Origin: Podarcis pityusensis
Lineage: Eukaryota
Reading direction: 5' to 3' (one strand)
Assembly (NCBI GenBank): GCA_964106645.2
Contig: OZ067043.1
Length of the DNA: 64,000 nt
Shown here piece after piece: positions 29,299 through 32,200 of this stretch (the first letter of the stretch is position 1; the number at the start of each line of letters is the position of its first letter). Position numbers: made by a program.

Positions 29299-32200
29299 AG
29301 ACCACTTTGCAGGAATTTGGGGGCAGCTAGTGGCAGGAAGGGAGGAAACATTCCTTTCCTGTGCTCAGGAAGCCTTGAAGGGTCTTTCCGGAGACAGGTT
29401 TGAAGCAAACCAGCAGGAGTGAAAGAGCACTGTAATTTAGACTTAATGATGAAAACAGCCCTATCTGTGAGTACACAGAGCCTGTTCACTCAGGGAAAGA
29501 AAAAGGTAATTTCAGGTACATTTTACAACATTTGCTGACAGAACAAAGAAGAAGGTTTATAAGTTATTATCAACGTTTCAAAGTGATGTGGCAAGACACA
29601 GAAAATAAACAAGCAACCAAGAAGAATGAGTAAAGGACGACCAAAGGAAAAAAAGAAAGCATTTCCCTCTTCTCAGCAAATACTAGAGTAACTGGCTAAG
29701 TTTGGAGAGGCCTACAGCTTCTGTATACAATGCACACATGCAGCACTTCATCTGGAATCATTTTATGGTGAGCCATCAGGAATGGCAATGTTATAGGAAT
29801 AACACCTGATAAATGGGGAACTATAGTATAGAACCTTTGGTCACATAAAGCATTTGTCATTGCAGGCACCATCCTATACTAGTCAGAAGTCTTAAGATAC
29901 CAGACTGACTCGAGCCCCGTCCAAATGCATGCCTTATTCTTCTTCTCAGGAGTTCAGAGCAGCTTACATCTGGCTCCCAGGTGGACACCTCTTACCCAGG
30001 CAACTCACAGGGCCAGAACTGCTCAGCTTCAGCAGTGGATCTGAATCACATGCCTTAGACTATTCTTGACTCTGCCTGGAAACAAAGAGTTCTGACTCAG
30101 AAGGGTAGCAGGGAGCTTGGGTAGAAGATGCTACACATGATCATAGGTATAAAACCAGTGTTGAGTAAGAGTCAAGGAACACTGCCTCCGATGCTGTGAG
30201 GATTTCAATGCCTCTCTGGCTTTCCAAGACCCTCAAAGGCAGCAAGGGGAAATGGCTCTAAGGGGAAAGAAAGCAGTGATTCATTCACCCTGCCCTGTTC
30301 AGGGCTCGCAACTACTACTTACAGAACCTCTCCCTGGAACTTTTGTTCCTCCTCCACCACTTCCATAAATTACCTTTATATCCCATGCTAGAATTCCTTG
30401 TTCTACCCCCAAACACATAATTGTTAGGTACTGAGCTAGGATCCTAGAATAATAGGCAGGTAGGATCCTAGAATGCAATAACCAGGTTGGCTTGCAGGAG
30501 CAGCCCAATCAGGCCCCAAGAGGAAGTTAATCAGCCTATTAGGTCCAGAGGATCCTAGAATGCAACAACTGATTGACCTGCAGTAGCAGCCCAATCAGAC
30601 TGCAGGAGGGAAGCAGAATCAGCCAATCACACGGGACCCATGGTGTAAATAATGTATATAAAGCCTGAGGTTCTGGGGGGGGGGGGGGAGTCAATTCACT
30701 GTTAAGAGATGCAATAAAGAGCATGAAATCACTACGCGACTCTGAGTATATTTCAATAATGCAAGGGGATCAGGCAAAAGGCCTGTCTACTCCAGCATTC
30801 TGCTCTCACAGTAGCCAGCCAGATGCTTAAGGGAAGTCCACAAGCAGACCATGAATGCAGAAGCACTTTCCTCACTTGTGTTGGCCTTTGTGTGGAAAGG
30901 ATGTTGGGCTTGAAGGGCCATTGGCCTGATCTAGAAGGCTCTTCTTGTGTTCTTATGCTCCCAACAGCTGGTACAAGAGAGGGCTGTTGCACTCACAACC
31001 TTTCTGTGGACTTCCCACAGACATCTAGTTAACTACTGTGGGGAACAGGATGCTGTACTAAAGAGACCAGCAGAGCTCTTGGGTTTTAATGCTTCATCCA
31101 AGCATTGCCAAGGCAACTGAGCTAGGATGCAGGGTTTGGGTTTGTTTTTTTCAGTCTGTCATTCATGAAAAGAGAAAGACCCACCTCCACACTCTATAAA
31201 GTATGTTCTCAATTAAAAACTGGTGATAACACTTGAAATGTGTATGCATTTCTAGGAATTAAAGCCACATGTTTTAGCAATTGAGGGTGGCTAGTTTGAA
31301 GCTTCAAAATGCAATCACTTTGGTTAAAATGATAATTTGAGTGTAGACCTGGCTTTCCTAGACCAAATAAGAGCAACAAGCATATCATTTCACAAAGGTC
31401 AGCCTACAAAGAAACAGGAGAAATGTAGGATGTAGATCAGCTGAGCAGCCTTTCTTTGCTTTTTCTTAAAGAAAAGCTGCCATGGCATTGAACTCAGCTG
31501 CACTTTACTGTCACTCAATGTTTGTGCTTGGAGCTTAACCTGAGAAAATGTCTGAGCAAGAATCAAAATTATGAATACTGTCTGATAGCTTTGAGGATTT
31601 CCTTCCTTCCTTCCCCCTCATCTAAGTAATTAAAGGTAAAGGGACCCCTGATCATTAGGTTCAGTCATGACCGACTCTGGGGTTGCGGCGCTCATCTCGT
31701 TTTATTGGCCGAGGTACAGCTTCCGGGTCATGTGGCCAGCATGACTAAGCCGCTTCTGGTGAACCAGAGCAGCACATGGAAAGGCTGTTTACCTCCCCCC
31801 CCCCCCCGGGGATAGCTAATTATCTACTTGCACTTTGATGTGCTTTCGAACTGCTAGGTTGGCAGGAGCAGGGACCAAGCAACGGGAGCTCACCCCGTCA
31901 TGGGGATTTGAACCACCGACCTTCTGATTGGCAAGCAAGCCCTAGGCTCCGTGGTTTAACCCACAGCGCCACCCGCGTCTCTTTTAAGTACTTAAAAGCC
32001 TTACTAAATCAAGTTATACTAAGTCCACAGCATCTCCCTGATCCACCAAGCTTGTAACTCTATCAAAAAAAGAAATGGGATATGTCTGGCATGATTTGTT
32101 TTTGACAAACCCATGCTGCGGCTTAGTAATCACGGCATCCTTTTCTAAGTGCTCACAGACATACCGTTTAATTATCCGTTCTAGGATCTTTTCTGGTATT

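What the first reader, a model, noticed from the sequence alone, without database searches (positions are those of the whole stretch)
29880..30330. Identity gradient across the inverted arms suggests gene conversion or a constrained core
Seen by eye: about 2 mismatches in ~90 bp at 30009-30100, roughly 85-90% identity over 29880-30330, and about 70% in the flanks (29840-29880, 30330-30870). One duplication event followed by neutral decay should diverge evenly. Inference: the centre has been homogenised repeatedly by intrachromosomal conversion, which implies physical pairing of the arms, or it is a duplicated functional element.
Basis: partly seen in the sequence, partly recalled or inferred. 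Interest (0 to 1): 0.65.

Follow-up and report, generated by a model that had tools for sequence, protein, structure and literature searches.

The report
Old inverted repeat with younger core block
Two short inverted copies of a non-coding segment, about 20 kb apart in a repeat-rich vertebrate region, share a sharply bounded middle block that is about four times less diverged than its flanks; this most likely records an old copy-over between the two, and it is an ordinary kind of event.

Summary
There are 2 mismatches in 92 bp at 30009-30100. Identity is 91.5% (408 of 446 ungapped columns) over 29880-30330 and 68-75% in the flanks.

The shape is a step, not a gradient. An unsupervised change-point scan finds one block, L 29875-30333, with 8.4% mismatch against 29.7% outside; 0 of 200 permutations reach that score. 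The step model beats a V-shaped gradient (AIC 556 vs 569). Inside the block divergence is uniform.

The arms are a ~0.7-kb unit: L 29826-30875 (+) and R 52221-50897 (-). Three arm-private transposon insertions with intact target-site duplications interrupt it, one of them inside R's block.

The block has no coding frame, no Rfam family and no unusual fold. The longest identical run is 47 bp, so conversion is not going on now.

Best reading: an old inverted duplication whose centre was overwritten once or more by non-reciprocal transfer, then decayed neutrally. A mosaic transposon family and selective constraint cannot be excluded, because no other vertebrate genome could be searched here. Interest is low.

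The parts
29826..29879 (+). L arm, left flank A (old homology)
   Evidence: 35 of 47 ungapped columns identical to R 52221-52175. Local score exceeds 300 of 300 dinucleotide shuffles.
29880..30332 (+). L arm, low-divergence block (sub-blocks B 29880-30185, C 30186-30278, D 30279-30332)
   Evidence: 38 mismatches in 448 columns. B 92.5%, C 85.2%, D 96.3%. The change-point scan places the block at 29875-30333.
30333..30421 (+). L arm, right flank E (old homology)
   Evidence: 58 of 85 columns identical once the MITE in R is excised. 0 of 300 shuffles reach the score.
30422..30755 (+). Insertion private to L, LTR-like (TG...CA ends, 5-bp duplication ATAAT at 30417-30421 and 30756-30760)
   Evidence: Borders read. 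Internal tandem repeat 30462-30539 / 30549-30627 at 80%. TATA-like and AATAAA motifs read by eye. Absent from R.
30761..30875 (+). L arm, right flank F: 5' part of an interspersed repeat ('Y' family)
   Evidence: 79 of 110 columns identical to R 51006-50897. Other Y copies lie near 9834, 15610, 37195(-) and 50147(-).
52175..52221 (-). R arm, left flank A'
51768..52170 (-). R arm, block part 1 (matches L 29880-30282)
51393..51767 (-). Insertion private to R inside the block, LTR-like (TG...CA on the + strand, 4-bp duplication ATTC on the arm strand)
   Evidence: Borders read. L has the empty site GTGATTCATTCACC.
51339..51392 (-). R arm, block part 2 (matches L 30279-30332)
   Evidence: 96.4% over 55 columns. 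52 of 54 columns.
51054..51298 (-). Insertion private to R in flank E: MITE with terminal inverted repeats and TA duplication
   Evidence: Borders. Relatives at 24010-24252 (85%), 58533-58760 (92%) and 63866-64000.
50897..51051 (-). R arm, rest of flank E' and flank F' (start of a Y copy)

Best explanation
A ~0.7-kb non-coding segment that already contained the junction with a Y-family interspersed repeat was duplicated long ago in inverted orientation, about 20 kb away. The two copies diverged to about 30% raw mismatch (JC 0.37).

Later a single internal tract of about 455 bp (L 29880-30332) was overwritten by non-reciprocal transfer. This means ectopic gene conversion or homology-templated repair of a break, from the other arm or from another copy. 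It may have happened once, or repeatedly until some point in the past. That reset the tract to identity, and it has since decayed neutrally to 8.4% (JC 0.09, about a quarter of the pair's age).

After that an LTR-like element inserted into R's tract. Conversion is not going on now.

Shown: the step profile, the sharp edges within continuous homology, uniform decay inside the block, and the private insertions. Inferred: the transfer itself, its direction, and how many events there were.
For: - Two-rate step: block 8.4% vs flanks 29.7% mismatch, LR 50.5, 0 of 200 permutations; Fisher p = 1e-11.
- The step fits better than a gradient, AIC 556.2 vs 569.5.
- Homology runs through both edges without a break. 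Flanks A, E and F each beat 300 of 300 shuffles, while sequence beyond them does not (266 of 300 shuffles score as high). So the block is a younger patch inside older paralogy, as a conversion tract would be.
- Both arms have the same E|Y junction to within a few bases. That argues for descent from one ancestral segment.
- Inside the block the mismatches look neutral and even: longest identical run 47 bp, reached in 2057 of 5000 permutations; minimum-window test 904 of 5000. Transitions to transversions are 22:16, with 4 CpG-context transitions. There are three indels of 5, 4 and 1 bp and a tolerated 375-bp insertion in R.
- None of 10 other repeat pairs in the window is step-like; 7 to 83 of 100 permutations reach their scores.
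- A 455-bp block is my own recollection of the usual tract length; I did not read that in a paper here.
Against: - In the passages I read, the review PMC3924818 says conversion rates drop dramatically at about 80% identity and that the minimal efficient processing segment is about 200 bp. If the tract had diverged like its flanks (about 20% at that time), a single late event would have been rare.
- There is no outgroup and no second species, so the defining tree incongruence is untested.
- GC content of the block (0.47-0.49) is only slightly above flanks A and E (0.40-0.43) and is not above F in L (0.52). So there is no clear GC-biased signature.
- In the Y part, L and R are no more alike (0.61) than either is to unrelated Y copies (0.61-0.69). 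Their grouping in a tree is unstarred at 81/79. Common descent of the flanks therefore rests on the shared junctions, not on the tree.
- I found no terminal features that would rule out a transposon.
Confidence: 0.4

Rival explanations
1. The arms are two independently inserted copies of a non-autonomous transposable element, from two subfamilies or recombinant master copies. The subfamilies share a conserved or recently exchanged central part and have long-diverged ends. The step would then have arisen in the element's master lineages, not at these loci.
For: The window is full of interspersed repeats: SINE, MITE, Y and Z families. The unit is short (~0.7 kb), has defined limits in both arms and includes part of a known repeat family. 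Dispersal of a piece under 1 kb over 20 kb in inverted orientation is what transposition typically produces (my own knowledge). In the Y part, L and R are no closer to each other than to other copies.
Against: Only these two copies of the block exist in 64 kb, while every other repeat family here has three or more. The only other nhmmer match at E below 0.001 to a different place, 20705-20763, is a ~22-bp chance-like match. I found no target-site duplication or terminal inverted repeat at the unit or block ends, reading. Self-complementarity is not above shuffles. Two reading frames of the block find no relatives among predicted proteins, whereas a control ORF from the Z repeat finds 8. That is only weak evidence against a high copy number.
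Confidence: 0.27
2. The block is a duplicated functional non-coding element, such as an enhancer or a non-coding exon, kept similar in both copies by purifying selection while the flanks drift.
For: The edges are sharp and substitutions run about 4-fold lower than in the flanks. 90 of 92 columns are identical at 30009-30100. There is an acceptor-like pyrimidine tract plus CAG at about 29934-29948 in L (read).
Against: Divergence inside the block is statistically even, not patchy as constrained elements usually are. There are three indels, and a 375-bp insertion splits R's copy. The acceptor-like CAG is GAG in R. Stops occur in all frames. No Rfam family reaches its threshold; the best match is snoZ168 at 24.1 bits against a gathering score of 36. 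Fold z-scores are +0.25 to +1.27.
Confidence: 0.15
3. One reading: conversion is still going on, with recurrent physical pairing of the arms and tracts of varying length producing a gradient.
For: Identity is highest near the middle (97.8% at 30009-30100). The V-gradient model does beat the uniform model, AIC 569.5 vs 600.7.
Against: The step model is better by 13 AIC units, and there is no gradient inside the block (LR 1.8). The block is 8.4% diverged, with no identical run longer than 47 bp, against an MEPS of about 200 bp. R's private insertion inside the block has been neither removed nor copied to L.
Confidence: 0.06
4. Alignment artefact, chance, or local mutation-rate variation such as CpG decay in the flanks.
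For: Flank identities depend somewhat on gap penalties. The flank segments are short: 47, 85 and 110 columns.
Against: 0 of 200 permutations reach the observed score. blastn finds the same pattern independently. The flanks hold 0-2 CpG each, and their transition to transversion counts are 7:5, 17:10 and 16:15, so they are not driven by CpG transitions. The three flanks agree with one another (chi-square p = 0.73).
Confidence: 0.03

Closest known systems
Interlocus (ectopic) gene conversion between paralogous segments, as reviewed in PMC3924818
   Same: A short internal tract of raised identity with sharp ends lies inside continuous older paralogy. It is detected by a permutation scan of the GENECONV kind. 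The arms are on the same chromosome segment.
   Different: The tract is old (8.4% diverged). The surrounding paralogy is far below the identity at which conversion is efficient. No species comparison is available. The sequence is non-coding and partly repeat-derived, not a gene pair.
Large palindromes kept near-identical by arm-to-arm conversion, e.g. the human Y palindromes (abstract of PMC3723533 seen in the listing: arm similarity above 99.9%)
   Same: Inverted arms on one chromosome with a spacer between them; homogenisation by conversion is invoked.
   Different: Here the arms are ~0.7 kb rather than many kb, identity is 91.5% at best, and there is no sign of current conversion.
Interspersed repeat families with a conserved central domain and variable ends (CORE-, V- and Deu-type SINEs; recalled, not tested in any call)
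   Same: The centre is better conserved than the ends between copies.
   Different: No tRNA-like head (0 tRNAs), no tail, and only two copies seen. Membership is not testable without a repeat library or the genome.

Membership tests
Interlocus gene-conversion tract | A block of significantly raised identity relative to the rest of the paralogous alignment | tested here: met
   LR 50.5, 0 of 200 permutations; Fisher p = 1e-11. 0 of 10 control repeat pairs reach significance.
Interlocus gene-conversion tract | Homology continues across both tract ends, so the block is not a separate insertion with its own target-site duplication | tested here: met
   Flanks A and E abut the block and each beat 300 of 300 shuffles. 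No duplication at the block ends, read.
Interlocus gene-conversion tract | Tree incongruence: the block groups by species, the flanks by locus | not testable with these tools
Interlocus gene-conversion tract | GC-biased signature in the tract | tested here: inconclusive
   GC is 0.47-0.49 in the block against 0.40-0.52 in the flanks. Strong/weak differences split 17:13 between the arms.
Actively homogenised palindrome arms | Near-identity of the arms, and identical runs long enough for efficient recombination (about 200 bp; PMC3924818 passages) | tested here: not met
   91.5% identity; longest identical run 47 bp.
Transposable-element family copies | Terminal repeats or target-site duplications at the ends of the unit | tested here: inconclusive
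   None seen at the left end. The right end is obscured by other repeats. Self-complementarity is not above shuffles.
Transposable-element family copies | Many dispersed copies | not testable with these tools
   Only the two arms in the window match at full length; the one other nhmmer match at E below 0.001 outside the arms is a ~22-bp stretch. No access to the genome.
Protein-coding exon | Open frame kept in both copies, with protein relatives | tested here: not met
   Stops in all six frames of the block in both arms. Indels of 5, 4 and 1 bp. phmmer with a 77-aa ORF gave 1 hit, a low-complexity tandem-repeat protein matching 25 residues. The word search with a 63-aa ORF gave no candidate.
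Structured RNA gene | Match to an Rfam model, or a fold more stable than shuffles | tested here: not met
   0 matches at gathering score in the window. The best sub-threshold match in the block is E = 0.036. 7 of 7 RNA folds and 1 DNA fold have z-scores above 0.

The most novel reading that the evidence does not exclude
The ~455-bp block is an exapted regulatory or non-coding-RNA element kept in two inverted copies about 21 kb apart, bracketing the DNA between them. Its similarity would be maintained by selection together with occasional conversion, so the pair would act as a functional unit, for example paired boundary or enhancer elements.
Probability: 0.1. Interest if true: 0.5.

Novelty: new member of a known kind. 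Interest (0 to 1): 0.2.

Why it matters
If the conversion reading is right, this is a small, datable example of non-reciprocal exchange between short and already diverged inverted repeats in a non-mammalian vertebrate. It shows that homeologous repair can leave a clean patch that is still legible after about 8% divergence. That is useful as a caution for dating duplications and repeats from mean identity, but it does not change what is known. If the block proves conserved across species, it would be a candidate repeat-derived regulatory element.

Tried and rejected
- Coding exon: six-frame translation shows stops in every frame. Pfam on 10 of the 33 ORFs of 110 aa or more in the window (the 10 longest) gave 0 families. 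phmmer of the 77-aa ORF against 1.84 billion representatives gave 1 hit, which is spurious. The word search with a 63-aa ORF gave nothing (near lengths only).
- Structured RNA: Rfam at gathering score on the whole window gave 0 matches. In E-value mode on 29600-31200 there were 3 weak matches, all below gathering. ARAGORN found 0 tRNAs. Folds are no better than shuffles.
- Foldback or palindromic element: nhmmer matched the unit weakly to its own reverse complement (E = 5e-9). Smith-Waterman self-complement scores (21 and 28) are at the shuffle mean (22; maxima 48 and 43), so I dropped this.
- Third copy at 20705-20763 (nhmmer E = 2e-4): the alignment shows only a ~22-bp shared stretch, so I dropped it.
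- Larger mirrored duplication: a sensitive inverted blastn shows MITE and Z copies in mirror order around the arms. These pairs are 77-87% identical, which is younger than the arm flanks, and each is not its family's closest pair. There is no similarity just outside the unit. I judged the mirror order coincidence.
- Tree of the Y part, to prove common descent of the flanks: unresolved. Support is 81/79 and unstarred; L and R share 2 exclusive sites, while other pairs share up to 4.
- CpG or mutation-rate explanation: rejected.

Full report
**Setting**

The window has no N and 42.9% G+C. It is crowded with interspersed repeats:
- a ~350-bp SINE-like family with four copies (14960-15320, 18513-18757, 31631-31983, 34443-34799);
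- a TA-flanked MITE family (24010-24252, 51054-51298, 58533-58760, 63866-64000);
- a 'Y' family (near 9834, 15610, 30803, 37195, 50147, 50967);
- a 'Z' family (28368-28678, 52762-52849, 59003-59299).

From recall, not from a tool, the SINE resembles those of squamate reptiles. I take the window for a non-human vertebrate, not for human sequence.

No gene was found. Rfam gave 0 matches at gathering score and ARAGORN 0 tRNAs. Pfam gave 0 families for the 10 longest of 33 stop-to-stop ORFs of 110 aa or more.

**The arms**

blastn and the repeat finder agree on an inverted pair. L 29841-30282 matches R 52213-51768 (86.5%, 451 columns), and L 30279-30333 matches R 51392-51338 (96.4%). Reading both arms shows that three gaps in the alignment are insertions private to one arm, each with an intact target-site duplication:
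- In L, a 334-bp LTR-like element at 30422-30755 (TG...CA ends, ATAAT duplicated).
- In R, a 375-bp LTR-like element at 51767-51393 (ATTC duplicated). It sits inside the high-identity block; L has the empty site.
- In R, a 245-bp MITE at 51298-51054 (TA duplicated).

With these left out, homology runs from L 29826 to 30875 and from R 52221 to 50897. That is a unit of about 0.7 kb, with about 20 kb between the arms.

**Numbers**

Over ungapped columns:

| Segment | L coordinates | Identical columns | Identity |
|---|---|---|---|
| A | 29826-29879 | 35/47 | 74.5% |
| B | 29880-30185 | 283/306 | 92.5% |
| (within B) | 30009-30100 | 90/92 | 97.8% |
| C | 30186-30278 | 75/88 | 85.2% |
| D | 30279-30332 | 52/54 | 96.3% |
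| E | 30333-30421 | 58/85 | 68.2% |
| F | 30761-30875 | 79/110 | 71.8% |

**Is it more than chance, and what shape is it?**

- Block against flanks is 38/448 vs 70/242 mismatches, Fisher p = 1e-11. JC distances are 0.090 and 0.365.
LR is 50.5; the largest of 200 permutations is 30.8.
- A V-shaped logistic gradient fits worse than the step: AIC 569.5 vs 556.2, with the uniform model at 600.7.
- Within the block a gradient adds nothing (LR 1.8).
- A 92-column window with 2 or fewer mismatches arises in 904 of 5000 permutations. The longest identical run, 47 bp, is reached in 2057 of 5000.
- B, C and D differ only marginally (chi-square p = 0.04, on a post hoc split). The three flanks agree with one another (p = 0.73).
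- As a control, the same scan on 10 other repeat pairs of the window (4 SINE, 3 MITE, 1 Z, 2 Y) gave best LRs of 5.8-12.8. Between 7 and 83 of 100 permutations reached them, so none is step-like.

**Are the flanks really homologous?**

Local alignment scores of A, E and F each exceed 300 of 300 dinucleotide shuffles. The ~500 bp beyond each end of the unit do not; 266 of 300 shuffles score as high.

Flank F is the 5' part of a Y-family repeat. In both arms it starts within a few bases of the same point after flank E, while four other Y copies have unrelated upstream DNA. That shared junction argues that L and R descend from one segment that already held the Y insertion.

The Y part itself cannot confirm this. 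L and R are 0.61 identical there, no more than either is to other Y copies (0.61-0.69). The tree groups them only at 81/79, unstarred, with long end branches of 0.25 and 0.37. They share 2 exclusive sites, where other pairs share up to 4. One partial Y copy (30862-30975, minus strand) was left out of that tree. If the arms are a duplication, it is about as old as the Y family.

**Function tests on the block**

All were negative.
- Every frame on both strands has stops in both arms. The three indels between the arms are 5, 4 and 1 bp.
- A 77-aa ORF of R's block, searched with phmmer against 1.84 billion representatives, gave one hit (E = 7e-6). It is a tandem-repeat protein matching 25 residues, which I regard as spurious.
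- A 63-aa ORF in another frame found no candidate, with near lengths only searched.
- As a positive control, a 73-aa ORF from the Z repeat found 8 proteins among 10 candidates. Repeat-derived ORFs of this kind of genome are therefore present in that database.
- Rfam in E-value mode over 29600-31200 gave three weak matches. The one inside the block (snoZ168, 24.1 bits against a gathering score of 36, E = 0.036) is below threshold.
- Seven RNA folds and one DNA fold have z-scores from +0.25 to +1.27.

**Substitution pattern**

The block has 22 transitions and 16 transversions, 4 of them CpG-context transitions. The flanks have 7:5, 17:10 and 16:15, with 0-2 CpGs each. GC is 0.47-0.49 in the block and 0.40-0.52 in the flanks. 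CpG decay does not explain the step, and there is no clear GC-biased signal.

**Interpretation**

Both arms have the same junctions (A|block, block|E, E|Y), so the whole unit has one ancestor. The four-fold difference in divergence must then come from one of three causes:
- a later non-reciprocal transfer that reset the block;
- selection on the block;
- recombination among lineages of a mobile family.

I favour the first, at 0.4. The block is a clean patch inside continuous older homology, it has decayed evenly, and it tolerated indels and an LTR insertion. That gives the order of events: duplication, then transfer, then the LTR insertion in R.

The main difficulty comes from the passages I read in the review PMC3924818. 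They say conversion falls dramatically at about 80% identity and that the efficient processing segment is about 200 bp. Either the tract had been kept similar by earlier events, or the transfer was a rare homeologous repair. By the same yardstick, conversion cannot be efficient now, because the longest identical run is 47 bp.

The TE-mosaic reading (0.27) and constraint (0.15) remain open.

**Not checked**

No supplementary files were needed or seen.

Noticed in passing
window 30422-30755 (+): Solo-LTR-like insertion with TG...CA ends and a 5-bp duplication ATAAT. It has an internal ~80-bp tandem repeat (30462-30539 / 30549-30627, 80%), a TATA-like motif, a G run (about 30675-30689) and an AATAAA. 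No second copy exists in the window.
   Followed up: partly
window 51393-51767: A second solo-LTR-like insertion of 375 bp (TG...CA on the + strand, 4-bp duplication), sitting inside R's high-identity block. It has no blastn match to the first LTR-like element and no other copy in the window.
   Followed up: partly
window 24010-24252, 51054-51298, 58533-58760, 63866-64000, 3151-3205: MITE family with terminal inverted repeats and TA duplications. Copies are 82-92% identical to one another, so the family is younger than the arm flanks.
   Followed up: partly
window 30761-31070: In L the Y copy that forms flank F is followed directly by inverted Y pieces (30880-30956 and 30976-31060). This makes a local head-to-head arrangement that R lacks.
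   Followed up: no
window 24003-24232 / 58515-58757 and 28361-28475 / 52762-52881: MITE and Z-family copies lie in mirror order around the two arms (MITE - Z - arm ... arm - Z - MITE). I judged this coincidence, because these pairs are more alike than the arm flanks and are not their families' closest pairs.
   Followed up: partly
window 59027-59245 (-): A Z-family repeat carries a 73-aa open frame that matches 8 short predicted proteins from unnamed short contigs at 67-92% identity. This is probably repeat-derived ORF noise in public predictions.
   Followed up: no
window 23191-23326, 26694-26815, 9437-9479: Short near-perfect palindromes. 23191-23248 / 23269-23326 is 93% complementary with a 20-nt loop, and a relative lies at 50775-50873 just beyond R's flank F.
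   Followed up: no
window 29244-29296 and 28347-28388: Long (CT)n and (AAT)n microsatellites lie just upstream of the L arm.
   Followed up: no
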